64,000 bases of DNA from a virus (lineage: Duplodnaviria > Caudoviricetes), in IMG/VR virus record IMGVR_UViG_3300032225_002102, positions 32,001 through 96,000 of that record. The stretch is one strand, 5' to 3'. The notes below the pieces were generated by a model. It was not told the origin of the DNA, did no database searches, and was given only the letters and a program-made list of their open reading frames with translations. Made by a program: the position numbers and the translations under genes. Shown in pieces: positions 17,851 to 31,229 of this stretch (its first letter is position 1; each line of letters opens with the position of its first letter).

Positions 17851-18612
17851 TTAGAATGTTTTCTGAGTACCACTGAAGCATCTGTTTTTAAATTTTTTTT
17901 TTAATTGTCGCTCTTTTCTTTTTTCTAAAAATAAATACATTAAATTATTTTTTCTTAATCTACTATAAAGTGTACCTCTATCTATATTTAATAAATTAGA
18001 ACACTCAATTACATTTTTACTTTTATTAATTGCTTCTAATAATTTATCTAAAGGAATATCAATATATCTTTTGGATTCAAAAGTACTTCCTTGTGTATAT
18101 ATAAATAAACATTGTTTTCCACAAAAATGCAATCCCATTTTATTATACTTTAAAATTCTTATTCTTTTATTAAATAATTTTTTACAAGAAAAGCATTGAA
18201 CTTCAATTCTTTCAGCTATCAACTCTCTTACTCTTTTTTTCTGGGATTCACTTTGATTTTTTCTTTGTTCTAGTGTCCATTTTGCACCTAAACCAGTTTC
18301 TCCACCTATTGTTAAATTATAACCTTTTTTATAAGTGTTGTGTAATTTTATATATTTTATTTCTAAATTGCTTAGTATAAATTTTACTTCAGTTTTATTT
18401 TCATTAATTTCAAAAGAATCTAAAATTGTTAATTTAAAATTTTCTATCCCATTATATTTAATAATTGCATTATAAAATTTTCTACCTATAGAGTTTTTCT
18501 TTTTCCTTTTATAAATAGAAAATCTTGCTTTAAAATCTATAGATTGTCCAATATAACTTTTACCCGAAGGAGAAGTAAACATGTAAATTACTGCTAAATT
18601 TTTATACTCCAT
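17851..18612 (-). CDS. GIY-YIG homing endonuclease
   Basis: VIYMFTSPSGKSYIGQS...R, GYNLT.GG, C-terminal HTH. Confidence 0.85.
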   Translation of the reverse strand: MEYKNLAVIYMFTSPSGKSYIGQSIDFKARFSIYKRKKKNSIGRKFYNAIIKYNGIENFKLTILDSFEINENKTEVKFILSNLEIKYIKLHNTYKKGYNLTIGGETGLGAKWTLEQRKNQSESQKKRVRELIAERIEVQCFSCKKLFNKRIRILKYNKMGLHFCGKQCLFIYTQGSTFESKRYIDIPLDKLLEAINKSKNVIECSNLLNIDRGTLYSRLRKNNLMYLFLEKRKERQLKKKFKNRCFSGTQKTF

Positions 18613-19540
18613 TAGTTAAATTATTTTTATAATATAATAACATATCTATTATTTCTTTTTTCATATAAGGGACTTCATAAGTTTTACTATTTGTTTGTTT
18701 ATAAATTTCATCACCAATTTCTTGCAAATCAAACCATTCAAATTCAATAAAATCAACTTCATATCCAAACTGTTCTAACATATAACCATATAAACTTAAT
18801 TGTAAAAAATAATGTATTTTATTACAATCTTCTAAATGAGAAATAGGATTTTTCATTTTTTGATATTGATTACCCTCTTTTATCTCAATATTAGTTTTCC
18901 AATCTCGAATAATTACTTTACGATTTTCTAAAACTATTATCTGATCTGCTGTTCCTGCTAATCTAAATTCTGGTAATATAAGTTTTAATTCTACATGAGT
19001 ACCTGGTTCAAGATTATACCAATCAATGTTAGAATGTTGTGGAATTACAGGGTACTCTTTACCATTAAAGTTAAATAACTTATCTTTAAACTGTTTATCT
19101 TCTTTAGCTAGATGAAATGCACTACCTTTTCTTGTACTTTTCTTATTCCCCTCTACCCAATTATTCTTAATTAATTTACATACCCTAAGAATCTCATCTT
19201 GTTCTCTATAAGAAAACACATTTATAAATAATTTATCATCTTTATTACATTGAGATAATCCATATCTTTGATATTGTTTGTATTCACTTTCAGAAAAAAT
19301 TACATTCCCAATTAAATCATTTAACTCACTATTGTATTTTTTAATCTTAGCTGGTTTATCTATATCTGATAAATATTGAAGTGATTTATAAATTAACCAA
19401 AATTGTTCTTGATCTTCAAAGTGATTATAAAAATGTCCTAAGAATTGTGTAGCTGATTCATATCTTAATCCTTCTTTATTTGTATATGTATGTGTGGGTT
19501 CACAGAAGAATAATTCTTCCTTTAAAAATAATGATTTCAT
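18602..19540 (-). CDS. PD-(D/E)XK exonuclease
   Basis: HTY, G..FH, E...LAGTAD...DWKT, QLSLY motifs. Confidence 0.8.
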   Translation of the reverse strand: MKSLFLKEELFFCEPTHTYTNKEGLRYESATQFLGHFYNHFEDQEQFWLIYKSLQYLSDIDKPAKIKKYNSELNDLIGNVIFSESEYKQYQRYGLSQCNKDDKLFINVFSYREQDEILRVCKLIKNNWVEGNKKSTRKGSAFHLAKEDKQFKDKLFNFNGKEYPVIPQHSNIDWYNLEPGTHVELKLILPEFRLAGTADQIIVLENRKVIIRDWKTNIEIKEGNQYQKMKNPISHLEDCNKIHYFLQLSLYGYMLEQFGYEVDFIEFEWFDLQEIGDEIYKQTNSKTYEVPYMKKEIIDMLLYYKNNLTNGV

Positions 19541-19542
19541 AA

Positions 19543-19794
19543 TTAATTAAAAAATTGTGAGTTTAAACTAAATTTATTTTTCTTACTTGTAGCAAATAAA
19601 ACTTTACTATCTAATAACCCCCCTACTGCTTTCTTAAACGTGTTAAGAGAAACCTTTACATCTTCAGTATATTGTTTATGTGTTATTTCAATCACATCTT
19701 CTTGTGGAGTTTGTAATTGAATCCATATTAATAAATTTTTACTAGATTGAGTGAGATTCAATAACTCATCTTTTTTATTTAAATTTAATTTCAT
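19543..19794 (-). CDS. Small RepL-like winged-helix protein
   Basis: TFKKAVGGLLDSKVL...FSLNS pattern parallels the 22906 gene. Confidence 0.45.
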   Translation of the reverse strand: MKLNLNKKDELLNLTQSSKNLLIWIQLQTPQEDVIEITHKQYTEDVKVSLNTFKKAVGGLLDSKVLFATSKKNKFSLNSQFFN

Positions 19795-19814
19795 TCTTTA
19801 AATATTTAGTTTTA

Positions 19815-19845
19815 CAAAGATATGTCAAATTTTGATAGAAACAAA
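19815..19845 (-). promoter_or_regulatory. Bacteroidota primary-sigma promoter
   Basis: TATCTTTG (-7) at 19815-19822 and TTTG (-33) at 19842-19845 on minus strand. Confidence 0.7.
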
Positions 19846-19972
19846 TCTATTTGAAAATATTTACTTTTTACTAGATAAAGTTAAATTATTTAGTAATATA
19901 TCAATACCCTGTATGTTTAGAGTTTAAAATTAATACCCCCTATATATAAAAAGAGAGATTATTCTTCCTCTC

Positions 19973-20593
19973 TTATAAAATATTTTGTTTCCATTGTAAA
20001 TTTTCTATATTTATATTTTTAGAATTATTGTCCAAATAACACACCGTAAAATAATTATTGTGTTTAATAAAATTAAATGCTCTCAATACTTCTTTTGCAA
20101 CATTAACTCTTTTATACGAACCATTTTTATACAAATTACAAGTTACATAATTCTCTTTATTATTAAATCCTTTATATAATTTTTTACTAGATTCAATTTC
20201 AACAATATTTCCTAAATTAGAAATTATATATCTTTCTTCATATCCATAAACAGGTAAAAATATTTCATCCTCTAAAGGAGTATAAAAAATAGATTTAAAA
20301 TTCTTTGTTTCTTTTTTTATTTTTGGAAATGGTTTATCTACCCAATATAAATTAGAAACTTCATTATTTAATTTATTACCATCTAATCTTTTAACCCATT
20401 TATTTCCCATATTTTCAACAGGATTAAAAACTTCTAATACTACTCTATGTACTAAATAATCCTTTGATTTAACCTTAAAAGATTGATACCCTGCTTTAGA
20501 TGTTTTTAAATTTAGTACCCCTCCACTTGGATTTTTAACATTACCCAAATTTGATACTTGATAACCACCCTTAAATTCTTTAAAAATTTCCAT
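19973..20593 (-). CDS. Tandem NUMOD4/HNH-like endonuclease (degenerate)
   Basis: Two YxxSNLGN units, VHRVV..VF, DGNKLNN..SNL.W; HNH His residues partly lost; TACATTTG promoter at 20620-20627. Confidence 0.75.
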   Translation of the reverse strand: MEIFKEFKGGYQVSNLGNVKNPSGGVLNLKTSKAGYQSFKVKSKDYLVHRVVLEVFNPVENMGNKWVKRLDGNKLNNEVSNLYWVDKPFPKIKKETKNFKSIFYTPLEDEIFLPVYGYEERYIISNLGNIVEIESSKKLYKGFNNKENYVTCNLYKNGSYKRVNVAKEVLRAFNFIKHNNYFTVCYLDNNSKNINIENLQWKQNIL

Positions 20594-20787
20594 TGTTATT
20601 ATTGTTTAAATTAATAATACAAATGTAATACTAATTTACGGGAATAATAACTGCTATTATAAATATTTAATATAAGTGTGTGAGTAGAGTAGGATTGTAT
20701 TTGTTCCCCATACAAACTGATACTCCGTTGGTACTCCGCTACCTTCGAAGTAAATTTACCATTTTAAACTTTTAAACAATTAATACA

Positions 20788-21303
20788 ATGGCATTAGTTA
20801 CAGTTAAATACCTTGGTTCTACCTCAACAGGTAGATACCATAAGTACGAAGTGATACCAACAATCACACCAGCAAAACCTGCTTCAGGAGCAGGTGCTAC
20901 AGAAGTAGAAGCTACTCCTGAAATAGTAAACACTCACGTAGCAGAACTTACTGCTGACGGTGTTGAAATGAACAAGAATCTCGGAGTTACGGGATTCCTT
21001 TCGCAAACACATCTTCACACAACTCCAAAGGTTGGAGATACTGTAGAAGCGGACGTTCGTGCATTCGTAAAGAATGCTACTACAACAGTAAACTTCTTCC
21101 ACGGTATTGACCGTGCAAAGCAAGAAGCTTTTGCTTCTGCAAATAGGTTAAATCGTGAATTTGCGGAAGTTGCAAGCTTTGCGAAAAAGCTTGAGGAGTT
21201 CGATATTAGTGCAAATGATATCAAAGCATTCGAAGAGATTAAGCTCCTTAAGGAACGCAGAAAACTCATCACAGCACAGTTGAAAGGGTTAGATGATAAC
21301 TGA
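20788..21303 (+). CDS. First gene of plus-strand block, hypothetical
   Basis: Clear ORF with visibly higher GC and a strong terminator. Confidence 0.7.
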   Translation: MALVTVKYLGSTSTGRYHKYEVIPTITPAKPASGAGATEVEATPEIVNTHVAELTADGVEMNKNLGVTGFLSQTHLHTTPKVGDTVEADVRAFVKNATTTVNFFHGIDRAKQEAFASANRLNREFAEVASFAKKLEEFDISANDIKAFEEIKLLKERRKLITAQLKGLDDN

Positions 21304-21312
21304 CCCTTTGGG

Positions 21313-21343
21313 AAGAGCGGAGTGAAAAACTCCGCTTTTTTTT
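21313..21343 (+). terminator. Strong intrinsic terminator
   Basis: agcggagt-gaaaa-actccgct followed by T run. Confidence 0.85.
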
Positions 21344-21421
21344 AGAATTGGAAGCATTTAGTGATTTGCTTTCGCATTCTTTCAAAATCGGAAGCATTTA
21401 GTGATTTGCTTACGCTTTTGA
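21344..21421 (+). repeat. Two tandem 26-nt repeats (40-nt period), each forming a hairpin
   Basis: ggaagcatttagtgatttgcttWcgc at 21350-21375 and 21390-21415. Confidence 0.9.
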
Positions 21422-21462
21422 TTTATTTGTTTTGTTTAAATAATTAATTAAATAAATAAAAA

Positions 21463-21624
21463 ATGGAAAAAATAACAATGATTGAACTTGAAAACCATGT
21501 TAATAAATGGTTTGGTTCTGATTGGAACAACCAATCATCAGCACAGATTTTAGCAATGACGATAGATTTGCTTGAAAAAGTTGATGTTGAAGTTGTTTCA
21601 GAAAAACATTTCAAAGAGGTGTAA
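21463..21624 (+). CDS. Small hypothetical protein (53 aa, not in ORF track)
   Basis: MEKITMIELENHVNKWFG...; A-rich start context; hairpin terminator at stop. Confidence 0.6.
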   Translation: MEKITMIELENHVNKWFGSDWNNQSSAQILAMTIDLLEKVDVEVVSEKHFKEV

Positions 21625-21957
21625 CAACCTCTTTTCTTTTAATGCTTCATTGTTGTTTCACAAGGACAACCTATCTAAGATAGAAAGCAGAGTGGAAGAA
21701 AGAGATGCAACACTCTTTAATTTGTTGTTTTAATTATAAACCTTTCTCATGTAACATGGCTGGATTTATTATTAGTGGGGTTATTGTATCTGTTGAGGAT
21801 ACGAGAGATTATGATTTTAAATAGCGGTTATCCCATTTTTTAAAATTGTATACCACAAGGATTGATTCTCCTTGATAAAGAAAAGAATTACAGGGGAAGA
21901 TAGAATCCTGTATAATGTAACTATCGTATTGTTTTTTTATTCTAAATCATATAAAAA

Positions 21958-22206
21958 ATGACAAAGAAAAAAGAAAGAGGTTCATTCAACCTATCTTTAT
22001 CCACAGTTAGGAGAAAGAAAAGGTTGGATTCTTACTTTGCTTTTACACAGCAGAGAGAAGAGGAAGCAGAATATGCTTATTCTTACTTTCGTGGTTTGTT
22101 AAAAGCTAACGTAAGAATAGGTTGTGGTTGTGGTTGCGGAGGAGATAGTGTAAACGAGAGTTTATATTACCTTGGAGCAAGCATATATCGCACTCTAAAC
22201 GATTGA
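21958..22206 (+). CDS. Small basic protein with GCGCGCGGD motif
   Basis: ORF with A-rich start context. Confidence 0.55.
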   Translation: MTKKKERGSFNLSLSTVRRKKRLDSYFAFTQQREEEAEYAYSYFRGLLKANVRIGCGCGCGGDSVNESLYYLGASIYRTLND

Positions 22207-22310
22207 AGTTTCTCCCTTAAAAATTGGAGATAAGATTCGGAGTTTAACTGTACTTGGCAACAGAAACAGTTACTTTTATTTTTTATTTTATCTTTAAACA
22301 AAAAAAAACA

Positions 22311-22673
22311 ATGTTGAAAATTAATTTATCTGGTCATTTTAATAAAAATCTTGCAGAGAAAGGTTTTACCTTTCCTGGAACTGTTCAGATTAATCCTGAG
22401 AAATCTTTTCAGGATAATTTAGAAGCAGTAACTAAATTCTTACAAGGATTAGGTGTTGTTTCTGATAGCAATGTAACTATTGCTCTTCCTGGAATGAGTG
22501 TGTTAGCTACTATGGTTACAGTAGCATTACATGGTTTGACAGGACAATTTCCAGAAATTGCTCCTTTGTTTAGAAATGAAAATGGAGATTTTGTGTGTGT
22601 GGAAACAATAGATTTACAAACAATGAGGAATCATGTTTGTAGAAATCTACGTGAAAGCATTATAGAATTATAG
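22311..22673 (+). CDS. csx15: Csx15-like (CRISPR type III-associated) protein
   Basis: INLSGH...ALPG...ALHGLTGQFP...F...ETIDLQTMR..R matches recalled Csx15 pattern; ATG at 22311 preferred over TTG at 22254. Confidence 0.7.
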   Translation: MLKINLSGHFNKNLAEKGFTFPGTVQINPEKSFQDNLEAVTKFLQGLGVVSDSNVTIALPGMSVLATMVTVALHGLTGQFPEIAPLFRNENGDFVCVETIDLQTMRNHVCRNLRESIIEL

Positions 22674-22905
22674 GTTAAAGTGGTAAATGATAATAAAGTA
22701 GGGATATTATTTCTCTACTTTTATTTTCTTTTTACCTGAATATGAAGATTAGGTAAATTTCTTATATATGCAAAGGATGTTTTGGATTTATGTAGATGTA
22801 CATAAGAAAAATAGTTCCGAGAAGTTAATCAGACTACTTGCATTAAGTTATATAAGAATAAAAGAAGTAGATTAGTTCTACTTCTTTTTACCTAATTATG
22901 AAGAT

Positions 22906-23358
22906 TTAATTAGTTAAATATTTTATAGATTCTTCTTCTACAATATTAAAACTTTCTATTTGCTTTCCTTCAATGATTGCATCAATTAAAGTTTTTCTAT
23001 CTACTTGTGATTCTCTCCAAACAGTTAAAGGATTTAATTGATATTGTCCTTTTGCTAATTTAACAACAAGTTTAGAATGACATAATCTATCAATACATTT
23101 ATAAAATGTTTGCTCGTTAAAATTTTTACCTATATCTTCTTGTATTTGAGTTTGTAATAATTTGTTTGTGTTAAACACATTTAACTTATTACTATTTTTA
23201 GATAAGTATAAAAAAATTTGCATATCTAATAACGAAGATAACTTTTTAGTTAAATCTAAAACATTGTCATACAATTGTGTGTAATTATCTTCAATTTCAA
23301 TGTAACCTTTCTTTTGAGTAGTTACAATCTCTTCTGTTTTAAAATAAAATCTGCTCAT
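22906..23358 (-). CDS. repL: RepL-like winged-helix replication/regulatory protein
   Basis: IFLYL...TFYKCIDRL...LVVK...GQYQLNP..W; TATATTTG promoter at 23383-23390 favours ATG at 23358. Confidence 0.65.
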   Translation of the reverse strand: MSRFYFKTEEIVTTQKKGYIEIEDNYTQLYDNVLDLTKKLSSLLDMQIFLYLSKNSNKLNVFNTNKLLQTQIQEDIGKNFNEQTFYKCIDRLCHSKLVVKLAKGQYQLNPLTVWRESQVDRKTLIDAIIEGKQIESFNIVEEESIKYLTN

Positions 23359-23478
23359 TTGAAATTTGTTTAAATTATAATACAAATATACTATTTTAAA
23401 TCTACAATAACTAATCAATACTATACTAAAATAATTAATATTTTATTAGGAATTGTAAATTATTTTATTATGAGAGAT

Positions 23479-23541
23479 ACTATACCTACAGGATAGTACA
23501 ACTATACCTACAGGATAGTGACACTATACCTACAGGATAGT
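23479..23541. repeat. Three perfect 19-bp palindromic direct repeats at 22-bp period (iteron/operator-like)
   Basis: actatacctacaggatagt at 23479, 23501 and 23523. Confidence 0.95.
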
Positions 23542-23675
23542 AGGATTTGATTAAAAATAGCTTAAAATGCTTATAATCAACGTTTTATATAATTTTAGTT
23601 GTTATAACTCTTTCTACTGTAGGTGATTAGCCTATCTGTGTACTGATTTGCATATATTTTGAACAGCAATTACAT

Positions 23676-23730
23676 TTTCTATATATAGTTATTTTACTAT
23701 ACTGATGAGTTCTTAAGAACGAAATAGAAA
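23676..23730 (+). ncRNA. Type III hammerhead ribozyme
   Basis: Stem III tttctat/atagaaa, cleavage triplet AUA (after 23683), stem I tatagt/actata, CUGAUGA, stem II gttc/gaac, GAAA. Confidence 0.88.
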
Positions 23731-23759
23731 TCCATTTTACCACAATAATATTTATTACA

Positions 23760-24092
23760 ATGCAAAAATTAAATTTAAAAACAAATGTACAATTGAATGG
23801 TAAAGTACTTTATACTACTTTGAACCTTTCAATTGGAGTGCATCACTTATGCAGTGTAACATTACATAATGCTGATGTAAAAAGTATTGAATTTCGTTTA
23901 TCTTTACCTAAAGCATGTGGAGAAAATGTAATGGAATATGTATATTTTACTGATAATTTGGAATTACAAGGATTAAGTTCTTTCCATATCTACCAGTTAT
24001 ATAAAGAATCAGTTGCAAGATACTGGAAAACATCTCCTTACAAAGAGGTAATGAAAAATTATCATTTAAGTAAAGCTAATAAATATGCTTAA
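23760..24092 (+). CDS. Hypothetical protein downstream of hammerhead
   Basis: ORF track. Confidence 0.6.
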   Translation: MQKLNLKTNVQLNGKVLYTTLNLSIGVHHLCSVTLHNADVKSIEFRLSLPKACGENVMEYVYFTDNLELQGLSSFHIYQLYKESVARYWKTSPYKEVMKNYHLSKANKYA

Positions 24093-24279
24093 AAGATAAT
24101 TTATCGTACTGATACGGTAAGGAATAGATAATTTATCTGCTATTTTAAAGAATGGTAGGTAAATTATCTGTTTTAATGATGGAAATGGGAGGTTTAATAG
24201 TTGGCTAATTCACATTCACCACTATTCAACTCAATCAGATATTAAAGAATTTAAAAAACATAACCAAATAATATAGCAA

Positions 24280-24459
24280 ATGGAAACAGATAGTTTATAT
24301 TTCCAACTCATTCAAGAAATTGCTAATGAGTTAATTAAATCAGAACAGTATGGCTTAGTGGATTTCATTCAAGGTAGAATGGATGAGATTACAATGATTG
24401 AAGATGCTTATATGGATAATCAGCTTTCAATTTTAGAAAACCAATCAACTGAATGTTAA
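24280..24459 (+). CDS. Small acidic hypothetical protein (59 aa, not in track)
   Basis: METDSLYFQLIQE...; abuts next gene. Confidence 0.55.
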   Translation: METDSLYFQLIQEIANELIKSEQYGLVDFIQGRMDEITMIEDAYMDNQLSILENQSTEC

Positions 24460-24460
24460 T

Positions 24461-24754
24461 ATGAAACTATTTACTGTACATCAAAACACCTATACCGAAG
24501 GTAACTTTGGTGATTTAATGTATGCAGGTGCAAAATTAATTGGTGTTTACACTAATTATGAATCTGCTAAGAAGATTGTAGATGATTTTGTTTCTATTAC
24601 ATATTATGCTCAGTTTGGAACAGGTGAGCAAGATATGTATATAACGGAAATAGAATCTGATGTGCAATTATCTGAACCTAATACTGATAATGGTAGATAT
24701 TATTCAGATGATGAAGATGAGTATCAAGAAGAAAACGATTTAACTTTAAAATAA
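24461..24754 (+). CDS. Acidic hypothetical protein
   Basis: LIGVY...ESAKK motif common in small phage ORFs. Confidence 0.6.
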   Translation: MKLFTVHQNTYTEGNFGDLMYAGAKLIGVYTNYESAKKIVDDFVSITYYAQFGTGEQDMYITEIESDVQLSEPNTDNGRYYSDDEDEYQEENDLTLK

Positions 24755-24762
24755 AAATAATT

Positions 24763-24969
24763 ATGTCAAACTTCAGAAAGTTAATTGAGTTCATAAGCAT
24801 AATGTTTATGAGTTATTTGATAGTGAATTTTGTAATCTCTATAATTGGAGATTATAGCTCTTACAAGGAATGCTTGAGAGATAGTTATAACATTTATTTA
24901 TTGTTTCTTGTGTATTGGTGGATTCCAATATTCAGAATGATAGATATAGATGAACAACAATACAAATAG
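24763..24969 (+). CDS. Small two-TM membrane protein
   Basis: Two hydrophobic segments. Confidence 0.55.
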   Translation: MSNFRKLIEFISIMFMSYLIVNFVISIIGDYSSYKECLRDSYNIYLLFLVYWWIPIFRMIDIDEQQYK

Positions 24970-24970
24970 C

Positions 24971-25192
24971 TGTTATAACTTGTGCACAGGTTGTAATAAT
25001 ACCAGAGGAAGTGCTGGCTTAGCTAATTAAGGTGTGTTTAACTTGAACAACAGAATTATTGGCATCAGAGAGTAATCTCTAATATAAGTTAGTCCATTGT
25101 AGCTAACACTGTATAGGTTACAGAATAACTTAAAGGAAATAATTCTTCCTTGACAACAAAGAGCTAAGCATCTCTATTGTAAAAACTGCTTA
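24971..25192 (+). ncRNA. Candidate structured ncRNA with two pseudoknots
   Basis: About 7 hairpins incl. GUAA tetraloop; 3' loops complementary to 25017-25024 and 25052-25060. Confidence 0.6.
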
Positions 25193-25219
25193 ACTTTTTA
25201 ACTTTAAACAAATAAACAA

Positions 25220-25699
25220 ATGAACTTAACATTATTTTTTAGATTGATAACAATGTCAATCTTCCAGAAAACAGTTATTTATAATAAAAAGGATTCAATG
25301 TATAGACAAATGAGTTATGACAACACTCATTTTTATTGTCCAATAGTCTACGCAATGGATGGTTTTAATGTATCATTACAAATCCATCATGCCAATTACT
25401 GCTCATCAGAAAATGGGTATAGAGAATTAGGACATTCAATGCAAGATGTTGAATTTGGGTTTCCTTCCCAAAATGAAGAGATTATGTTTGAATATGCAGA
25501 AGGGTACGGTTTACCTGAATATACCTTTGATGAAAATGGAGAATATAGCGAAACACCTTTTAACGTATCGTTATTTGATATAACTAAAGAGGTAGGTAGT
25601 ATTCCTCTGGACATAATGGAAGCTGTGTTTGAAAAACATGGTGGAATTGATTGGGAAAAAACCATTTCTGTTGAACAATTTAATCAAAAAGTATCATGA
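25220..25699 (+). CDS. Conserved phage hypothetical protein
   Basis: DGF.VS.Q....YC...VE.GFPS...HGGID pattern seen in phage proteins. Confidence 0.65.
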   Translation: MNLTLFFRLITMSIFQKTVIYNKKDSMYRQMSYDNTHFYCPIVYAMDGFNVSLQIHHANYCSSENGYRELGHSMQDVEFGFPSQNEEIMFEYAEGYGLPEYTFDENGEYSETPFNVSLFDITKEVGSIPLDIMEAVFEKHGGIDWEKTISVEQFNQKVS

Positions 25700-26022
25700 G
25701 CAACATAGTTTATTGGACAATGGCAAATGGTGAAAAAATAGATATAGATAGCATGGGGATTAAACATCTCCGTAATACTCTCAAGATGATTGTTAACAAC
25801 AGTCAAAAAAGAAGAGAAATAATCCTTAATGGAGATATGGCAGAACAGTTCAATTTTATCCACGAAGAAAACATTGAAGAACTTGAATACTAAAATTTTA
25901 AAAATAGCTAGTATATTTTTTATAATATTAAGTATACTCAGTTTCTTCAAAGGAAACAATGTAAATTTTTTTATAACATCATTCTTATGGATTAATGCCA
26001 TGGGATATTTAATTAAAGAAAA

Positions 26023-26634
26023 ATGAAAAACTTAAGTTTAGCTACATTAAGTGTAGTTCTTTTTGTTCTAACTTGTTCTTGTTCAAATGCAGAACAAGTT
26101 AAAATAGTGAAAGATAATCCAGCTTTTTCTCCTACACAAAAATATCAGATAATGGTATGGAATATAAAAAAAGCTGAAAATTACAGATCTGATATTTATA
26201 AGTGTCAAGCTAAAAAAAAAACAACTGGATGGGGATTCACCAATGTTAAAAGTGTCAAAAACATCCAACATGCTGATATTATTTTAAGAGATATGGTAGA
26301 AGAGTTACATAGTATAGTAAAAAAAGAGTACCCTAAGCAAACATACCTTCAACAAGCAGCAATAGTAAGCTTAATATATAATACTGGAGATTTAAAAGGT
26401 ATTAAAAAATCAAAATTTGCTAAATCTTTAGTAAAAAATGATATAGATAATGCTGTAGCAGCTTTTAAAGCTTGGAATAAGGTAAAAATTAAAAAAGGTA
26501 AATACATTGTAAGTAAAGGATTAGTAAAACGTAGAACTTATGAAGCAAAATTGCTTAACAATACGTTTACTATGAATGATTACAATAAACTTAAATCTGA
26601 GATTTCTCAGATATACAAAGAAAATAGATTTTAA
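26023..26634 (+). CDS. GH24 lysozyme with N-terminal signal/anchor
   Basis: E-x8-C-x5-T then GWG; AAIVSLIYNTG; GLVKRRTYEA; hydrophobic N-terminus ending TCSCS. Confidence 0.8.
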   Translation: MKNLSLATLSVVLFVLTCSCSNAEQVKIVKDNPAFSPTQKYQIMVWNIKKAENYRSDIYKCQAKKKTTGWGFTNVKSVKNIQHADIILRDMVEELHSIVKKEYPKQTYLQQAAIVSLIYNTGDLKGIKKSKFAKSLVKNDIDNAVAAFKAWNKVKIKKGKYIVSKGLVKRRTYEAKLLNNTFTMNDYNKLKSEISQIYKENRF

Positions 26635-26712
26635 TTGTGTATATTAATTATTTATTATTTTTTACTTTTTAATAGTGTGGAGATTTTCTTCACACTTATT
26701 TTTTTATTTATA

Positions 26713-26774
26713 ATCTGTAAAGGAATTAATAGAAGAAATTCTATAGTATGGTTCGTTTCCATACACAGATACTA
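26713..26774 (+). ncRNA. tRNA-like element lacking anticodon (tmRNA TLD-like)
   Basis: Acceptor atctgt/acagat + ACTA, unpaired aaaGGaatta, GAAA-capped stem, T-arm gtatgg-TTCGttt-ccatac. Confidence 0.6.
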
Positions 26775-26820
26775 ATCCTGTAGGTGCAGGATTTTAAACA
26801 AACAATCAAAAAACAAAAAC

Positions 26821-27279
26821 ATGCAAAATTCAAACGCAATCGCAACAGGAGTACAAACAGTAGAAGATTTAGTAAAAATTATTGAATCACGCAAGTTAAT
26901 TGCTCAACCAGGTGCTTATGATTTAAAAGTAACTGGTGTAACAGCTTACAATGGTAATCATATTGTAAATCTTTCAGCAATGAGTAATTATCACGTAGAA
27001 GAAGCTCGTGAATTAGCTTCTGAAGGTAAATTTCAAGAATCAGCAAACAAACAATTCACAATCAATGTACTTCCTAATGGATATTTACCTGCTAAAGGTG
27101 AAATAATTAAGTGTTATATTGATAATGTAAAAACTAAAAGTGGTGTAGAAGGATTATTTGTTACTTCACATTCAGAATTGAAATCTATTGCTGCTGGTAA
27201 AGTAGTATTTAATTTCGGTACTACAAAATCTACTACAGAAACTATTAGTTCTTCAGTAGCAGAAAATGCTTTTGCTTAA
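26821..27279 (+). CDS. Hypothetical beta-rich protein
   Basis: Clear ORF, own terminator at 27287-27320. Confidence 0.7.
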   Translation: MQNSNAIATGVQTVEDLVKIIESRKLIAQPGAYDLKVTGVTAYNGNHIVNLSAMSNYHVEEARELASEGKFQESANKQFTINVLPNGYLPAKGEIIKCYIDNVKTKSGVEGLFVTSHSELKSIAAGKVVFNFGTTKSTTETISSSVAENAFA

Positions 27280-27286
27280 TTTTAAC

Positions 27287-27320
27287 AAGGTAGTACTGTA
27301 ATGGTACTACCTTTATCTTT
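27287..27320 (+). terminator. Intrinsic terminator
   Basis: aaggtagtac/gtactacctt stem plus T-rich tail. Confidence 0.75.
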
Positions 27321-27342
27321 TACTTTTAACAATTAATGTAAC

Positions 27343-27756
27343 ATGAAGAAGTTTTTAGTAATCAATCACAATGATAGCTATACAGTTATCAAAAATACAA
27401 TCAACAATGTAGTAGAAACTATTACGATTGGTTGGAATAGTTTAAACGTGCCAAAACTTGATGCTATTGCATTTAAGTTGAACAGAACGATAGAATCTCA
27501 AGAAGATAAAGTAAAGTACTTTCAGAATCGTTTAATGGAAGAGAGTAATAAATTAAGTTCTCTTAAATCAATTAAACAAAGTTTAAAAAAAGAAAATCGT
27601 AAACTTCGTAAAGAGAAAGGTGTTAGTATTCGTATCAACTCTACAGGAGAAGAAACATTTATTGATTCTGAAACTTTAGAAATTTTAGATCCTTCTGATT
27701 ATACTTTATTAAGTATTGGTGAGTTTGTTACCAATGAAAAAGAAGTTTATATGTAA
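27343..27756 (+). CDS. Coiled-coil hypothetical protein
   Basis: ORF track; terminator at 27765-27792. Confidence 0.6.
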   Translation: MKKFLVINHNDSYTVIKNTINNVVETITIGWNSLNVPKLDAIAFKLNRTIESQEDKVKYFQNRLMEESNKLSSLKSIKQSLKKENRKLRKEKGVSIRINSTGEETFIDSETLEILDPSDYTLLSIGEFVTNEKEVYM

Positions 27757-28335
27757 TATTCATTAACTGCTACTGTAACAGGTAGCAGTTTTAATTTAAA
27801 ACAAAATGGAAACAATTAAAGTATTTGATAATAATAAAAAAGAAATAGAACCAGTTTATATTCCAGAAGAAGAAATTTGGAATTGGAGTAAATTCTTACT
27901 TCCTGAATTATTTCAAGAAATGAGTAATTTACTCACAGTACGGAATCCAAAAAGATTTCAATTTTACAATGATTTAAATAAATTTGTTAAAAATTGGAAA
28001 AAAAATAATAAATAAGTTTAACTTTGCTATATACATTTTAAGATGGAAACAATACTCATAGTATTAGAGGTATTTTATGTAATTACATTTATTTTATTTG
28101 GATTTTTGATTAGACATTATCGCAATATAATTGAAAAGAAAGTTCAATTTGGAAATGAATTTTTCAATCGTTATTTGAATTTATGTATTCAAAACACAAT
28201 AATTGAAAACCAAAATTTTAAATATTCTACTATTAGTAGAAACTTGTATAATAACAATCAAGATTTACGTTTAGATAATTCAGCATTACTTGAAAAAGTT
28301 GCTAAATTAGAAAATAAAAAGAAAAAAACTATAAA

Positions 28336-30216
28336 ATGAGATATTGTTATGACATAGAAACTCTTAAAAGGGTATTTACAATAACATTTCTTGATTATGA
28401 TTCAGAACAATGTTATCAATTTGAAATTTCAAGAAGAATAAATCAATTTCAAGAAATTAAAGATTTTTATCTTAATAAAATGAAGTGGAATATATGCTTC
28501 AATGGAATTTATTTTGATAACATTGTAATGAATTGGTTAGTTGATCAAAGATTTGATAAAAAAGAAGGAGAATTTATTTCTTCGGAGATTTATAAAGTTG
28601 CTCAAATTACAATTAATCAAGAAAGAGATTACGATTTGTTTAAACATTATTCTAAGTACAAATATAAGGATTATCATAAGGTTATAGATTTGTTTTGTTA
28701 TTGGGCAAAGATGAGTAGATTAAGCAAAAAACTTTCTCTTAAAACATTAGCATGTTCTATGGGTATGAGTATAGAAGAAATGCCTATACACCATTCCCAA
28801 GAATATCTAACAGATGATGAAATTCAATTAACTCTTGAATACAATAAAAATGATTGTATTGTAACAAAAGAATTAGCAAATCGTTTGAAAAATGAAATTA
28901 ATCTTAGAATGGATATTACTAAAAATTCTGGATTAAATGTTTTATCTTATGATGCTCCCAAGATTGCTTCTGAATTGTTATTAGATTCATATTGTAAAAA
29001 AACATTTACTGAAGAAATTAGTGAATATACTGTTTTTGAAGAATATAAGAAAAAAATTAAAGAAAGAAGATATTCTACATTTGGTTTTTTAATAAAAGAT
29101 TATATTCCAAAATTTCAATTTAATAATAATCAATTGCAAAATTTATATAATGACATTTTAAAATCTAAAAGTAGTTTTGAACAAGAATTATTATTTAAAA
29201 ATAAAAATGGAAATTATATAAAGTTGCAATATAGTAATGGTGGTTTGCATATTGTTCAACCAGTTCAATATTTTAAATCTAATTCTAAATTTGTTTATGT
29301 AGAAAAAGATTACTCCTCACTTTATCCGAATTTGTACATTAATTATAATTTTAATTCTCCTTTTTTTGGTACAGATTTATCTGATTTGCAAAATCAAATT
29401 TTAAAAGAAAGATTAGATGCAAAAAAGAATGGTAGAAAGTCAGAAGATAGTACAAAAAAATTAATATTAAATTCATATAGTGGAATTATAGATAATGCTT
29501 ATTCTCCTTTTTATGCTCCAGAACAAGCTTTAGCTATGAGAATTACAGGACAATTATGTATTTCTAAAGTAATTGATAAATATTATGAATTAAGAATAGA
29601 AATAGTTTCTGTAAATACAGATTCTGTAACGTTAAAATTAGAAAGAGATAATTTATATTTATTAGATAAAGTCAGAGAAGAAATAAAATCAGAATTAAAT
29701 TTAAATTTAGAAGATACGTTTTATCATTCTATTTATTATTTTTCAGTAAATGATTATATAGGTTTTACAGAATCAGGAAAAGTTAAATGTAAAGGAGAAT
29801 TTATTTATAACCATATTTTAGATGGTTCTAATGAATTTACAATTATACCTTTAGCAATTAAAGAATTTTTACAGAATAACGTTCCAATAAGTAAAACAGT
29901 TAATGAATGTAAAGAATTATGGAGATTTTGTAAATCACAAAAAGTTGATAAAAAATTTAAAATATTCTATCAAGGTAAAGAAATCCAGCATTTAAATCGC
30001 TATTTTGTTTCTGATAGAAAAAATGGAGCATATTTATATAAATCTCCAGATGGAATAAAAATGCTTAATTTATTTAAAGATACTCCTATTTACATTTGCA
30101 ATGAGGACATACGAGAAAGTGATATATTAAAATATCCAATTAATCGTGAATGGTATATTAGAAAAGCAGAAGAGAAATTACAAAACTTTTTTCCTTCACA
30201 AACAATATTATTCTAA
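28336..30216 (+). CDS. polB: Family B DNA polymerase
   Basis: ExoI YDIET, ExoII FNGIYFD, ExoIII YNKND, DYSSLYP, KLILNSYSG, NTDS, KCKG. Confidence 0.92.
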   Translation: MRYCYDIETLKRVFTITFLDYDSEQCYQFEISRRINQFQEIKDFYLNKMKWNICFNGIYFDNIVMNWLVDQRFDKKEGEFISSEIYKVAQITINQERDYDLFKHYSKYKYKDYHKVIDLFCYWAKMSRLSKKLSLKTLACSMGMSIEEMPIHHSQEYLTDDEIQLTLEYNKNDCIVTKELANRLKNEINLRMDITKNSGLNVLSYDAPKIASELLLDSYCKKTFTEEISEYTVFEEYKKKIKERRYSTFGFLIKDYIPKFQFNNNQLQNLYNDILKSKSSFEQELLFKNKNGNYIKLQYSNGGLHIVQPVQYFKSNSKFVYVEKDYSSLYPNLYINYNFNSPFFGTDLSDLQNQILKERLDAKKNGRKSEDSTKKLILNSYSGIIDNAYSPFYAPEQALAMRITGQLCISKVIDKYYELRIEIVSVNTDSVTLKLERDNLYLLDKVREEIKSELNLNLEDTFYHSIYYFSVNDYIGFTESGKVKCKGEFIYNHILDGSNEFTIIPLAIKEFLQNNVPISKTVNECKELWRFCKSQKVDKKFKIFYQGKEIQHLNRYFVSDRKNGAYLYKSPDGIKMLNLFKDTPIYICNEDIRESDILKYPINREWYIRKAEEKLQNFFPSQTILF

Positions 30217-30290: not shown

Positions 30291-31229
30291 ATGAAATATA
30301 GTAGAAAAGAACATTTAATTAGTGGAATTTATGCAATTATTAATCAAGTTAATGGTAAAATGTATATTGGAAAATCTAAAAATATTTACAATAGAACAAA
30401 TACTCATATAACTGGATTAAATACTAAAAATAAGAATGAAAATAGATATTTAATTAATAGTTGGCATAAATATGGAAAAGAAAATTTTAAATTAATTGTG
30501 TTAGAAGAATTAGAGTTAAATGAAGAATTAATTGCAGAAAGAGAACTTTATTGGATAAATTTTCATAATACCACTAATTCTAAATATGGATATAATTTGA
30601 GAATGGATTCTTCTACTAATACTATTGTCCACCAAGATACAATAGAGTTGATGAAAGAATCACATGCTATAAGAGTTTTAAATATGACAGAAGAACAAAG
30701 AAAAAAATGTGGGAATATTTCAAGAGAATTTTGGAAAAATAATCCAGAAAAAAAAGTTGAAATGGTTAAAAAAGTAAGAGAACAAATTCAAAAATATTCT
30801 ATTGTTCAATTTACAAAAGAAATGGAATTTATTAAAGAATATGGTGGTAGATATGATATTGTAAAAAATTATCCACTTTTATATGTTCAAGCAATTTTAG
30901 CTGTATGTAATGGAAATAAAGCTTCATATCAAGGATATATTTGGAGATATAAAGATTTAAAAACAAAAGAAATAGTATATCAAAAATCGCTTGAAGAAAG
31001 AAAAGAAAACATTTCTATAAGAAAATCAAGTAAAAAATCTTTTATAGTTAAAGATAACCAAATAAAAGAATATAACACTTTATCTCAATTATGTAAAGAA
31101 AATAATTTAGTTATTAACAATATTCATAAAAAACTAAGTAAGAATGGTATTGTAAAATTAAAAAACAAAAATATTTGGATCTTTTATGATAAAAATTTAT
31201 TTGAAAAATCTCAATTAACATTATTTTAA
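30291..31229 (+). CDS. GIY-YIG homing endonuclease
   Basis: GIYAI...MYIGKS...R, GYNLR, NUMOD1-like C-terminus; TATATTTG promoter at 30259-30266. Confidence 0.85.
   Translation: MKYSRKEHLISGIYAIINQVNGKMYIGKSKNIYNRTNTHITGLNTKNKNENRYLINSWHKYGKENFKLIVLEELELNEELIAERELYWINFHNTTNSKYGYNLRMDSSTNTIVHQDTIELMKESHAIRVLNMTEEQRKKCGNISREFWKNNPEKKVEMVKKVREQIQKYSIVQFTKEMEFIKEYGGRYDIVKNYPLLYVQAILAVCNGNKASYQGYIWRYKDLKTKEIVYQKSLEERKENISIRKSSKKSFIVKDNQIKEYNTLSQLCKENNLVINNIHKKLSKNGIVKLKNKNIWIFYDKNLFEKSQLTLF

What the first reader, a model, noticed from the sequence alone, without database searches (positions are those of the whole stretch)
20640..27320. RNA-dense putative early region: ribozyme, tRNA mimic and several structured RNAs interleaved with a Csx15 homologue
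Seen: elsewhere genes mostly abut or overlap, but this 6.7 kb block has repeated 150-350 nt gaps. Almost every gap folds on the plus strand into G-U-containing or GNRA-capped stems (details in separate findings). Inference: a first-expressed host-takeover/counter-defence cassette in which a long early transcript is cut into several small functional RNAs. This is my best candidate for an undescribed system here; that the parts cooperate is a hypothesis.
Basis: partly seen in the sequence, partly recalled or inferred. Interest (0 to 1): 0.8.

Follow-up and report, generated by a model that had tools for sequence, protein, structure and literature searches.

The report
Phage accessory block with conserved RNAs
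This 6.7-kb stretch of an uncultured ~130-kb crAss-related phage is a shuffled block of small accessory genes; its large gaps hold mostly transcription terminators and DNA repeats, but also one self-cutting hammerhead RNA, two undescribed conserved RNA folds and a phage copy of the Csx15 ring nuclease.

Summary
The block has the highest non-coding share of the 129-kb genome, 31% against a median of 7.6%. Five of ten gaps fold better than dinucleotide shuffles. Most of that excess is intrinsic terminators (14 found, 2 expected), plus DNA repeats: three 22-bp iterons beside a RepL-like gene, and palindromic sites. One gap hides a conserved 22-codon micro-ORF.

Three RNA elements have comparative support:
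- A type III hammerhead at 23676-23730. It has a complete core and is conserved unchanged in relatives whose flanking protein is only 65-73% identical. One stem pair shows a compensatory change.
- A 56-nt three-way-junction "Y-motif" at 21641-21696. Twelve of its 15 pairs covary across 8 distinct copies. No Rfam family matches.
- A roughly 100-nt ncRNA, "R1", at 22746-22862. Seven pairs changed compensatorily and none is broken.

The Csx15 homologue is real: it scores above the NCBIfam cut-off and keeps the catalytic His and Arg residues. No tRNA mimic is detectable here, though relatives carry a true tRNA-Met and a twister ribozyme in the same neighbourhood.

One long transcript cut into cooperating RNAs is not supported. 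Terminators follow most genes, an opposite-strand gene interrupts the block, there is only one cleavage element, and the parts shuffle between relatives. The block is best read as a new variant of known phage early or hyperplastic regions.

The parts
20594..20787 (.). Divergent intergenic region at the strand switch, presumably holding promoters
   Evidence: 91% identical to L009 and L010. Folding is not better than shuffles.
20788..21303 (+). First plus-strand ORF, 171 aa, no family; a replaceable cassette
   Evidence: No Pfam, PHROG or Atlas relative. Replaced by unrelated ORFs in L009, L010 and L012.
21313..21339 (+). Intrinsic terminator: an 11-bp GC-containing hairpin followed by a run of 8 T
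   Evidence: Read from the sequence and the MFE fold.
21333..21421 (+). Two 40-nt direct repeats, each a 6-7 bp hairpin with a 10-nt loop followed by a U-rich tail; role unresolved (second terminator or operator)
   Evidence: Repeat family D18. Relatives have a single copy with an invariant stem and no covariation.
21463..21634 (+). 53-aa ORF (21463-21624) with its terminator hairpin (21613-21634)
   Evidence: 72% identical in L009. Terminator found by the scan.
21641..21696 (+). Y-motif, a three-way-junction RNA. It has a 5-bp closing stem and two adjacent hairpins. The junction CAUU, the loop UUCACAAGG and the 3' tail GAGUGG are invariant.
   Evidence: MAFFT alignment of 4 copies: 9 of 15 pairs compensatory, 96.7% paired, 0/500 shuffles reach this, slid controls give 0-1. 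8 distinct copies: 12 of 15 pairs compensatory. One strong copy per genome in the window, L009, L042, L015/L043, L066 and L067, and two in L018. No Rfam match.
21756..21824 (+). Unannotated conserved micro-ORF of 22 codons, ending ...GVIVSVEDTRDYDFK
   Evidence: An intact frame in the window, L009, L012 and L014. Variable columns by codon position are 5/3/12. The longer 39-aa reading is lost in L009, where only the downstream ATG is in frame.
21856..21911 (+). Two conserved hairpins (21856-21874 and 21890-21911) in the leader of the 82-aa gene
   Evidence: Present in the window, L009, L012 and L014 with compensatory changes (A-U to U-A; G-C to U-A in two sequences).
21958..22206 (+). 82-aa ORF, no family
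   Evidence: 91% identical in L009.
22245..22290 (+). Terminator-like hairpin (22245-22272) plus U-rich tract downstream of the 82-aa ORF
   Evidence: One stem pair changes A-U to G-C in L014. Read from the sequence.
22311..22673 (+). Viral Csx15 homologue, 120 aa; a candidate cyclic-oligonucleotide ring nuclease and anti-CRISPR
   Evidence: NCBIfam NF040560 45.4 bits, cut-off 35. Matches PDB Csx15 chains 9tet and 9teu. S7, H9, H74, R106, R111 and R114 are invariant in 12 viral homologues.
22695..22721 (+). Terminator after Csx15, followed by a conserved junction motif (22731-22749) that recurs at 22887-22905
   Evidence: Terminator scan. Motif search in the window and loci. The unit bounds swapped cassettes in L006, L009 and L012.
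22746..22862 (+). ncRNA R1: a closing stem, a long interrupted hairpin arm ending in a 4-nt loop (GAUG here, GAAA in relatives), a second shorter hairpin, and a 36-nt almost invariant segment
   Evidence: 30 pairs, 7 with compensatory changes, 100% paired, slid controls 0-1. 97% identical in L009 and 80% in L015 although the flanking genes differ. The 35-aa ORF inside it has a stop in L015. Found by the model only in the window, L009, L015, L042 and L043.
22860..22888 (.). Bidirectional terminator between R1 and the minus-strand gene
   Evidence: Terminator scan, minus strand; the hairpin is also followed by a T run on the plus strand.
22906..23418 (-). RepL-like winged-helix protein (170 aa, or 150 aa from the ATG at 23358)
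   Evidence: Pfam RepL 15.5 bits, below cut-off. Atlas feature score 0.98 and TM 0.6-0.68 to RepL clusters. Relatives have unrelated minus-strand genes at this position.
23473..23542 (.). Three direct repeats with a 22-bp period, each an imperfect palindrome; iterons or operators for the RepL-like protein (DNA level)
   Evidence: Repeat family D6. Not conserved in relatives, which have other minus-strand genes.
23676..23730 (+). Type III hammerhead ribozyme. Predicted cleavage is between 23683 and 23684. It ends 29 nt before the ATG of the 110-aa gene.
   Evidence: RF00008 44.6 bits (gathering score 48.5), E 1.9e-7. Identical in L009 and L012, and U-A becomes C-G in stem I of L006. The conserved block starts within a few bases of its 5' end. 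It is the only hammerhead in the genome.
23760..24092 (+). 110-aa ORF downstream of the hammerhead, no family
   Evidence: Ten homologues at 64-100% identity.
24121..24174 (+). Long A/U-rich hairpin with G-U pairs plus a U tract (terminator-like). It overlaps three copies of a 13-bp palindrome at 24094, 24126 and 24157.
   Evidence: Gap z is -5.5 on plus and -0.6 on minus. Terminator scan. Kept in L008, L009 and L012 but replaced by a direct repeat in L006.
24280..24969 (+). Three small ORFs of 59, 97 (DUF7336) and 68 aa
   Evidence: Pfam DUF7336 26.1 bits. 76-94% identical in relatives.
24970..25219 (+). Gap unique to this genome. Its predicted multi-branch fold (25013-25170) is unverified.
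   Evidence: z -2.4, with 3 of 200 shuffles folding as well. No homologue in any locus or in G001/G002; only the 3' leader motif recurs.
25220..26634 (+). ORFs of 159 and 65 aa, and a lysozyme (26023-26634) with an N-terminal signal or lipoprotein-like segment
   Evidence: Pfam Phage_lysozyme 64.6 bits; PHROG endolysin.
26674..26793 (+). Terminator (26674-26696), then two conserved hairpins (26745-26764 and 26774-26793) in the leader of the 152-aa gene
   Evidence: Terminator scan. 91% identical in L006 and L008, with one U-A to G-U change. L006 has an extra 63-aa ORF inserted between the two parts.
26821..27313 (+). 152-aa ORF and its terminator (27287-27313)
   Evidence: 95% identical in L006. 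Terminator scan.

Best explanation
The block is the hyperplastic accessory region of a distant crAss-related phage of about 130 kb. It is probably expressed early, but that is inferred from position only. It is built as a string of small gene cassettes, most with their own terminator and leader, and relatives exchange these cassettes at conserved intergenic junctions.

The surplus non-coding DNA has four sources:
1. Intrinsic terminators.
2. DNA-level repeats: iterons or operators next to a RepL-like gene, and palindromic sites.
3. A missed 22-codon micro-ORF.
4. Real RNA elements.

The RNA elements are these:
- A type III hammerhead in the 5' leader of the 110-aa gene. It should cut between 23683 and 23684, freeing that message from upstream RNA and giving it a 5'-hydroxyl end (cleavage and consequence are inferred).
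- A 56-nt three-way-junction Y-motif that always follows a hairpin plus U tract.
- A roughly 100-nt ncRNA, R1.
- Small conserved leader hairpins.

The Csx15 homologue most likely degrades cyclic oligoadenylate or CBASS signals as an anti-defence enzyme. That is inferred from family membership and retained catalytic residues.

Shown here: the anatomy, the conservation, the covariation and the family matches. Inferred: expression timing, cleavage, and any function of the Y-motif and R1.
For: - Non-coding share is 31% against a median of 7.6%.
- 14 terminator-like sites against 2.0 +/- 1.7 expected. The gaps with the strongest z-scores are the ones that contain these hairpins, and most fold on both strands.
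- Mosaic structure: the window and L009 share 19506-20771, 21377-22289, 22669-22889 and 23669-24953 at 87-97% identity. The first gene, Csx15 and the minus-strand gene with its upstream region are replaced.
- Hammerhead: complete core and E 1.9e-7. The 55 nt are identical in L009 and L012, and L006 has a compensatory pair.
- Y-motif: 12 of 15 pairs covary.
- R1: 7 compensatory pairs, none broken.
- Micro-ORF: third-position bias of 5/3/12.
- RepL-like protein beside 22-bp iterons.
- Csx15: above the curated cut-off, with invariant S7/H9/H74/R106/R111/R114. These correspond to the residues reported as functional in 10.64898/2026.01.21.700848.
- Precedents: hammerheads flanking prophage genes, and one 13 nt before an early gene (PMC3088659); abundant early transcripts from long intergenic regions of crAss-like phage phi14:2 (10.1101/2020.03.07.982082); PeSL cassettes (PMC2839356, PMC4122927).
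Against: - No expression data could be obtained, so timing, transcript ends and cleavage are untested.
- The hammerhead scores below Rfam's gathering threshold, and only one compensatory change supports it.
- R1's covariation comes from only two sequence types. Its covarying stems are Watson-Crick on both strands, so the strand rests on G-U pairs in invariant stems and on context.
- The sigma-70-type promoter scan shows no enrichment (55 found, 57.8 expected), so the 'own promoter' part of each cassette is not shown.
- The recurrent order Y-motif/Csx15, then R1, then ribozyme in four lineages hints at more functional linkage than a purely modular reading allows.
Confidence: 0.6

Rival explanations
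1. One reading: a single long early transcript runs through the block and is cut into several small functional RNAs (ribozyme, tRNA mimic, structured RNAs). These cooperate with Csx15 in host takeover or counter-defence.
For: - The order Y-motif/Csx15, then R1, then self-cleaving ribozyme recurs in the window, L042, L043 and L015.
- Each complete genome checked has exactly one ribozyme in this neighbourhood: a hammerhead in G000 and a twister-P1 in G001 and G002.
- In L042, R1 lies about 40 nt before a tRNA-Met, which suggests co-transcription and processing.
- In L014 a tRNA-Met occupies the Y-motif's slot before the micro-ORF.
- Ribozyme-punctuated phage operons are documented (PMC3088659).
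Against: - Terminator hairpins with U tracts follow most genes.
- A minus-strand gene with convergent terminators at 22695-22721 and 22860-22888 interrupts the block.
- There is only one cleavage element and no tRNA in this genome.
- L009 keeps the Y-motif, R1 and the hammerhead without Csx15. L014 keeps Csx15 without any of them. L012 keeps the hammerhead only.
Confidence: 0.1
2. The conserved intergenic blocks act only at the DNA level. They would be promoter/terminator or recombination cassettes, like the PeSLs of T4-type phages, that mediate gene shuffling. The hairpins would have no function as RNAs beyond termination.
For: - Breakpoints of the mosaic fall inside conserved intergenic units, such as the hairpin plus junction motif at 22695-22749 and 22860-22905 that bounds different cassettes in L006, L009 and L012.
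- Several hairpins fold equally well on both strands.
- The Y-motif always follows a terminator-like hairpin.
- R1 is closed by a long inverted repeat.
Against: - Compensatory substitutions keep pairing in the Y-motif (12 of 15 pairs), in R1 (7 pairs) and in the leader hairpins. Duplex DNA sites do not need this.
- The hammerhead keeps every catalytic core base.
- R1 has five G-U pairs on the plus strand.
Confidence: 0.15
3. The Y-motif or R1 is itself an active agent. It would be either a new self-cleaving or host-RNase-recognised processing signal, equivalent to the tRNA and ribozymes found in the same slots in relatives, or an RNA decoy working beside Csx15 against cyclic-nucleotide or tRNA-targeting defence.
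For: - Strong covariation together with invariant unpaired bases in the Y-motif.
- Slot equivalence between the Y-motif and a tRNA-Met in L014.
- The Y-motif lies 50-100 nt upstream of Csx15 in L018 and L042.
- No Rfam family matches.
- Csx15-fused Schlafen nucleases cleave tRNAs in type III immunity (PMC13462974, abstract only).
Against: - There are no functional data.
- The Y-motif also occurs without Csx15 (L009).
- R1 is not found in bacterial genomes, whether as a CRISPR repeat or anything else.
- There is only one strong Y-motif copy per genome, so it is not a general gene-boundary signal here.
Confidence: 0.1

Closest known systems
Hammerhead ribozymes flanking single genes or short gene blocks in prophages, and the hammerhead 13 nt upstream of the first early gene of haloviruses HF1/HF2 (Perreault et al. 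2011, PMC3088659)
   Same: A consensus-core hammerhead sits in an intergenic leader of a phage accessory or early gene, a few tens of bases before the start codon. Neighbouring genes include anti-defence functions (ardA there, Csx15 here).
   Different: Only one ribozyme in the genome rather than a flanking set. It is type III, with very short A/U-rich stems, and scores just below Rfam's gathering threshold. Relatives carry a twister-P1 instead in the same neighbourhood.
Highly expressed early transcripts from two long intergenic regions of crAss-like phage phi14:2 (10.1101/2020.03.07.982082)
   Same: A crAss-related phage with long intergenic regions among early genes that give non-coding RNAs of unknown function.
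   Different: No sequence relationship was tested, and expression is not shown here. Here the elements are defined by covariation, not by RNA-seq.
PeSL promoter/stem-loop cassettes in hyperplastic regions of T4-type phages (PMC2839356, PMC4122927)
   Same: Variable small ORFs are bounded by conserved intergenic stem-loop units, and the breakpoints of gene swaps between close relatives fall in those units.
   Different: No shared promoter consensus was found here. Some of the conserved units show RNA-type covariation and include a ribozyme, which PeSLs do not.
Viral Csx15 homologues, proposed name AcrIII-3 (10.64898/2026.10.26.761840, section 15); Csx15 ring nucleases (10.64898/2026.01.21.700848)
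   Same: A small stand-alone Csx15-family protein encoded by an uncultured virus. It keeps the Ser-x-His, central His and C-terminal Arg residues reported as functional.
   Different: Activity is untested. I could not determine whether this exact protein is among the 20-odd viral sequences in that preprint. The host and its defence systems are unknown.
Small stable RNAs encoded with the tRNA cluster of phage T4 (own knowledge, not checked here)
   Same: A phage-encoded structured small RNA adjacent to a tRNA gene (R1 next to tRNA-Met in relative L042).
   Different: This genome has no tRNA, and no sequence or structural similarity was tested.

Membership tests
Hammerhead ribozyme, type III (Rfam RF00008) | Conserved catalytic core: CUGAUGA between stems I and II, GAAA between stems II and III | tested here: met
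   Both core strands are present without substitution at 23702-23708 and 23721-23724.
Hammerhead ribozyme, type III (Rfam RF00008) | Three helices around the core with stem III open; an A15.1-U16.1 pair followed by a cleavage-site base that is not G | tested here: met
   Stem III 6-7 bp, stem I 5 bp with an 8-nt loop, stem II 4 bp with a 4-nt loop; U16.1 then A17 at 23682-23683 (cmscan alignment; the MFE gives the same fold).
Hammerhead ribozyme, type III (Rfam RF00008) | Score at or above Rfam's gathering threshold | tested here: not met
   44.6 bits against 48.5, though E is 1.9e-7 for the 7.1 kb searched. The short A/U stems cost score.
Hammerhead ribozyme, type III (Rfam RF00008) | Conservation and covariation of the stems in homologues | tested here: met
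   Identical in L009/L010/L011 and L012/L013, whose flanking protein is 73% and 65% identical. Pair 1.1-2.1 changes U-A to C-G in L006/L007. Only one compensatory event.
Hammerhead ribozyme, type III (Rfam RF00008) | Self-cleavage giving 2',3'-cyclic phosphate and 5'-OH ends | not testable with these tools
   Needs in vitro transcription or end-specific RNA-seq.
Csx15 (NCBIfam NF040560) | Profile match above the curated cut-off | tested here: met
   45.4 bits against 35, E 8.3e-12. Matches PDB Csx15 chains 9tet (E 3e-4) and 9teu.
Csx15 (NCBIfam NF040560) | N-terminal Ser-x-His, central His and C-terminal Arg cluster, implicated in binding and catalysis (10.64898/2026.01.21.700848) | tested here: met
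   S7, H9, H74, R106, R111 and R114 are invariant in 12 viral homologues. H74 aligns with the His of the LHG motif in 9tet. The N-terminal correspondence is by inspection only.
Csx15 (NCBIfam NF040560) | Encoded beside a type III CRISPR-Cas locus | tested here: not met
   The context is a phage accessory block with no cas genes in 64 kb. This fits the proposed viral AcrIII-3 subgroup rather than the cellular accessory gene.
Csx15 (NCBIfam NF040560) | Ring nuclease activity on cA3-cA6 or CBASS signals | not testable with these tools
   Biochemical assay needed.
tRNA or tRNA-like structure ('tRNA mimic') | Cloverleaf with T-loop and acceptor stem, detectable by ARAGORN or the Rfam tRNA/tmRNA models | tested here: not met
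   ARAGORN finds 0 genes in the window and in the genome. No RF00005 match at E <= 10 in 20400-27500. The alpha_tmRNA match (20 bits against 50) is unstructured sequence similarity. True tRNA-Met genes exist in relatives L014 and L042.
Intrinsic terminators | GC-containing hairpin followed by a U tract, enriched over shuffles | tested here: met
   14 sites against 2.0 +/- 1.7 in 19500-28500. Function in the unknown host is not tested.
PeSL-like mobile regulatory cassettes | Conserved stem-loop units bounding variable ORFs, with swap breakpoints inside them | tested here: met
PeSL-like mobile regulatory cassettes | A conserved early promoter joined to the stem-loop | tested here: inconclusive
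   No enrichment of sigma-70-type sites. A recurrent TTTAAAC-like motif lies 15-25 nt before many start codons, but its role is unknown.
RepL-type initiator with iterons | RepL winged-helix fold next to tandem direct repeats | tested here: inconclusive
   Pfam RepL is below cut-off (15.5 against 20.3 bits). Atlas features 0.98 and TM 0.6-0.68 to RepL clusters. Three repeats with a 22-bp period lie about 55-125 bp upstream of its start, depending on which start is used.

The most novel reading that the evidence does not exclude
The Y-motif (21641-21696), possibly together with R1, is a new functional RNA class of crAss-related phages. It would be a processing signal or ribozyme interchangeable with the tRNA and self-cleaving ribozymes that relatives carry in the same slots, or an RNA decoy acting with the viral Csx15 against cyclic-nucleotide or tRNA-targeting immunity.
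Probability: 0.12. Interest if true: 0.85.

Novelty: new variant of a known kind. Interest (0 to 1): 0.55.

Why it matters
- It gives a worked anatomy of the most non-coding stretch of a crAss-related phage genome. It separates what is trivially structured (terminators, iterons, a missed micro-ORF) from what is under RNA-level selection.
- The two undescribed motifs have enough covariation to seed covariance models, and they are conserved across phages of 90-140 kb.
- Related genomes each carry one ribozyme in this neighbourhood but of different classes, a hammerhead here and a twister in G001 and G002. This argues that cleavage itself is the selected function, which bears on the long-open question of what self-cleaving ribozymes do in phages.
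- The Csx15 homologue adds a well-anchored genomic context for the proposed AcrIII-3 anti-CRISPR family.

Tried and rejected
- blastn of the block against 50,697 phage records found no match.
- The search for related loci with DNA polymerase and with the 110-aa family in IMG/VR found nothing.
- My metagenome scan used a hammerhead pattern with the wrong stem II spacing, 12 N instead of 10. Loci L021-L041 are therefore unrelated, and the scan was wasted.
- L020 shares the stem II string but is an unrelated phage with a doubtful fold, so I did not use it.
- Eight of the 13 loci that hit the Y-motif pattern did not match the model. I set them aside as chance or divergent matches.
- The 35-aa ORF inside R1 is rejected because L015 has an in-frame stop.
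- The 39-aa extension of the micro-ORF is rejected because L009 does not keep that frame.
- The alpha_tmRNA weak matches in the window and L009 are unstructured local similarity.
- Thermodynamic z-scores do not discriminate. The best-supported elements score -0.5 (Y-motif) and -1.4 (hammerhead), while terminators score below -4.
- R1's conserved 23-mer is absent from 185,579 bacterial and archaeal genomes, so there is no sign of a CRISPR-repeat mimic.
- L001/L002 and L004, relatives with 51% and 43% DNA polymerase identity, have little or no synteny in this block. The 110-aa homologue in L001 has no hammerhead.

Full report
**What the window is.** It is part of a 129,291-nt IMG/VR virus record, with the window at 32001-96000 of that record. 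GC content is about 25%. Structural genes (portal, large terminase, capsid) run on the minus strand up to 20593. From 20788 on, genes run on the plus strand: family B DNA polymerase at 28336-30216, helicase, and rIIA/rIIB. The DNA polymerase's best named relatives are crAss-like phages at about 27% identity. The portal's best hit is a Leptolyngbya phage at 34% identity, followed by crAss-like gut and Cellulophaga phages at 24-28%. The phage is therefore a distant member of the crAss-related assemblage. The finding covers the first 6.7 kb after the strand switch.

**Are the gaps real?** Yes. With a simple greedy ORF cover, the 6.68-kb windows overlapping the block have the highest non-coding share of the genome. 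That share is 31% against a median of 7.6%.

**Do the gaps fold?** Partly. Ten gaps were folded on both strands against 80 dinucleotide shuffles.
- Four gaps have z below -3.7: 21304-21462, 22674-22905, 24093-24279 and 26635-26820.
- Two are weak: 24970-25219 and 27280-27342.
- Four are no better than shuffles. These include the two largest gaps, 21625-21957 and 23419-23759.
- Three of the four strong gaps fold as well or better on the minus strand.

The MFE structures and the terminator scan (14 sites against 2.0 +/- 1.7 expected) show that the strong signals are hairpin-plus-U-tract terminators placed after most genes. They include a convergent pair at 22695-22721 and 22860-22888. The pair flanks the boundary with a minus-strand gene.

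**Known RNA families.** Rfam at gathering thresholds finds nothing in the 64 kb, and ARAGORN finds no tRNA in the window or the genome. In E-value mode one match stands out: Hammerhead_3 at 23676-23730, 44.6 bits (threshold 48.5), E 1.9e-7. All core bases are present and the three stems form. The predicted cleavage site is after A at 23683. No tRNA-like match appears even at E <= 10, and the weak alpha_tmRNA match is unstructured similarity. The 'tRNA mimic' is therefore unsupported.

**Relatives.** Homologues of the 110-aa protein and of the Csx15 homologue led to syntenic contigs:
- L006-L013, with 65-88% identity in the 110-aa protein.
- L014-L019, with 60-73% identity in Csx15.

Conserved RNA strings then led to two near-complete genomes, G001 (136 kb) and G002 (91 kb with terminal repeats), and to further contigs.

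The block is a mosaic. Against L009 the window shares 19506-20771, 21377-22289, 22669-22889 and 23669-24953 at 87-97% identity. The first gene, Csx15 and the minus-strand gene with its upstream region are replaced by unrelated sequence. The breakpoints lie in conserved intergenic units. One such unit is a terminator hairpin followed by a 19-nt motif. It occurs twice here (22731 and 22887) and bounds different cassettes in L006, L009 and L012. This is the pattern described for PeSL cassettes in T4-type phages (PMC2839356, PMC4122927).

**The hammerhead.** Its 55 nt are identical in L009/L010/L011 and in L012/L013, although the adjacent protein is only 73% and 65% identical. L006/L007 change the stem I pair next to the core from U-A to C-G. 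The upstream two-thirds of the gap is not conserved at all. Conservation begins within a few bases of the ribozyme's 5' end and runs through the 29-nt leader into the ORF. The ribozyme therefore belongs to the 110-aa gene's leader. It is the only hammerhead in the genome. G001 and G002 have no type III hammerhead, but each has one twister-P1 (58.9 and 40.3 bits, below threshold, E 3.5e-14 and 1.1e-8). In L042 the twister ends 12 nt before a small ORF. In all four lineages the ribozyme lies 0.8-1.7 kb downstream of the ncRNA R1 on the same strand.

**The Y-motif.** Immediately after the terminator of the 53-aa gene lies a 56-nt element at 21641-21696. It has a 5-bp closing stem and two adjacent hairpins. 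The junction CAUU, the loop UUCACAAGG and the 3' tail GAGUGG are invariant.
- In a MAFFT alignment of four copies, 9 of 15 pairs have compensatory changes and 96.7% of cells pair. No shuffle of 500 reaches this, and slid controls give 0-1.
- A covariance model finds one strong copy per genome in the window, L009, L042/G001, L015, L043/G002, L066 and L067, and two copies in L018.
- With 8 distinct copies, 12 of 15 pairs covary. That alignment is fitted to the model, so it leans towards the structure.
- Its own folding z-score is only -0.5, which shows that the shuffle test misses it.

The motif always follows a hairpin plus U tract. In L018 and L042 it lies 50-100 nt upstream of Csx15. In L014 a true tRNA-Met occupies the equivalent slot, about 60 nt before the conserved micro-ORF. 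No Rfam family matches it.

**ncRNA R1.** Between the convergent terminators lies a block that is 97% identical in L009 and 80% identical in L015, L042 and L043, even though the flanking genes differ. The 35-codon frame it contains here has a stop in L015, so it is not coding. The consensus fold has 30 pairs. Seven pairs changed on both sides between the two sequence types and none is broken, and slid controls give 0-1. Five invariant G-U pairs and the gene context in L042 favour the plus strand. In L042 it is followed about 40 nt later by tRNA-Met. It has no match in Rfam or in bacterial genomes. A caveat applies: only two independent sequence types exist, and the long closing inverted repeat could also serve at the DNA level.

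**Other contents of the gaps.**
- A 22-codon micro-ORF at 21756-21824 is intact in four lineages, with variable columns 5/3/12 by codon position.
- Two leader hairpins at 21856-21874 and 21890-21911 show compensatory changes. Two more lie at 26745-26793.
- Three 22-bp iterons at 23473-23542 sit just upstream of a minus-strand gene that the Atlas places with RepL initiators. Relatives have other genes and other repeats there.
- The long plus-strand-specific hairpin at 24121-24174 ends in a U tract and overlaps three copies of a 13-bp palindrome. L006 has a direct repeat in its place.
- The gap 24970-25219 is unique to this genome. It folds modestly (z -2.4) and cannot be tested.

**Csx15.** The 120-aa protein passes NCBIfam's Csx15 cut-off and matches the two Csx15 crystal structures. 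Its Ser-x-His, central His and three C-terminal Arg residues are invariant among 12 viral homologues. These are the positions shown to matter for cA4 binding and cleavage (10.64898/2026.01.21.700848). An October 2026 preprint reports about 20 viral homologues and proposes the name AcrIII-3, with activity untested (10.64898/2026.10.26.761840). This protein is a further, well-anchored example of that proposed group.

**Reading.** The block is a hyperplastic accessory region made of separately terminated cassettes. Most of the apparent structure is terminators and DNA repeats. Three RNA elements are under structural selection. The one-long-transcript, cooperating-RNAs model is not supported: terminators follow most genes, an opposite-strand gene splits the block, there is one cleavage site, there are no tRNAs, and the parts are gained and lost independently.

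The recurring order Y-motif/Csx15, then R1, then ribozyme leaves some room for functional linkage, as does the hammerhead-for-twister exchange between lineages.

Precedents exist for each ingredient:
- Hammerheads in prophage operons and before an early halovirus gene (PMC3088659).
- Abundant early intergenic transcripts in crAss-like phi14:2 (10.1101/2020.03.07.982082).
- Other windows of this scan report ribozyme-punctuated phage operons and unknown covarying motifs in equivalent slots. I treated those as leads only.

Noticed in passing
window 17851-18612 (-), 19973-20593 (-), 30291-31229 (+): Homing-endonuclease-type genes flank the block. They carry GIY-YIG (30.4 bits), HNH_3 plus NUMOD4 (44.4 bits), and another GIY-YIG. 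In L012 the NUMOD4 gene is expanded to 383 aa.
   Followed up: partly
L015 734-1259 (-): In a relative, about 6 kb from Csx15, two small genes carry precomputed Pfam hits: Acb2_Tad1_hairpin (weak) and Lockin. This hints at further cyclic-nucleotide-sponge-type anti-defence genes near the strand switch.
   Followed up: no
window, 15-25 nt upstream of many start codons (e.g. 20765, 22294, 25203, 26793, 27797): A recurrent TTTAAAC(A)A-like motif and A-rich leaders occur without Shine-Dalgarno sequences. The motif is the only part of gap 24970-25219 that matches elsewhere in G000, G001 and G002.
   Followed up: partly
L018 1766-1853, L042 6842-6938, L066 3332-3420: Another conserved non-coding element lies between the Y-motif and the Csx15 start in these relatives. 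It has repeated AAGUG strings and two hairpins. It is absent from the window, which has a different leader.
   Followed up: no
L014 10367-11062; L015 6286-7068; L018 4064-5282: Relatives also have very long gaps (0.7-1.2 kb) around Csx15 that neither Rfam nor my two models explain.
   Followed up: no
L004 6805-8046 (-): A TnpB-type gene (OrfB_IS605, Cas12f1-like_TNB) is inserted in a more distant relative of this phage.
   Followed up: no
window 12083-15118 (-) and 40460-42334 (+): Two different proteins hit the same large-terminase PHROGs. The second also matches DnaC-like, primase and phrog_1366 profiles, so it is probably a replicative P-loop protein rather than a second terminase.
   Followed up: no
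window 55358-55427 and 55604-55673: A 70-nt direct repeat, 80% identical and 246 nt apart, looks like an internal or tandem gene duplication.
   Followed up: no
window 26023-26634: The lysozyme in this otherwise 'early-looking' block has an N-terminal hydrophobic segment ending in a Cys-containing lipobox-like motif.
   Followed up: no
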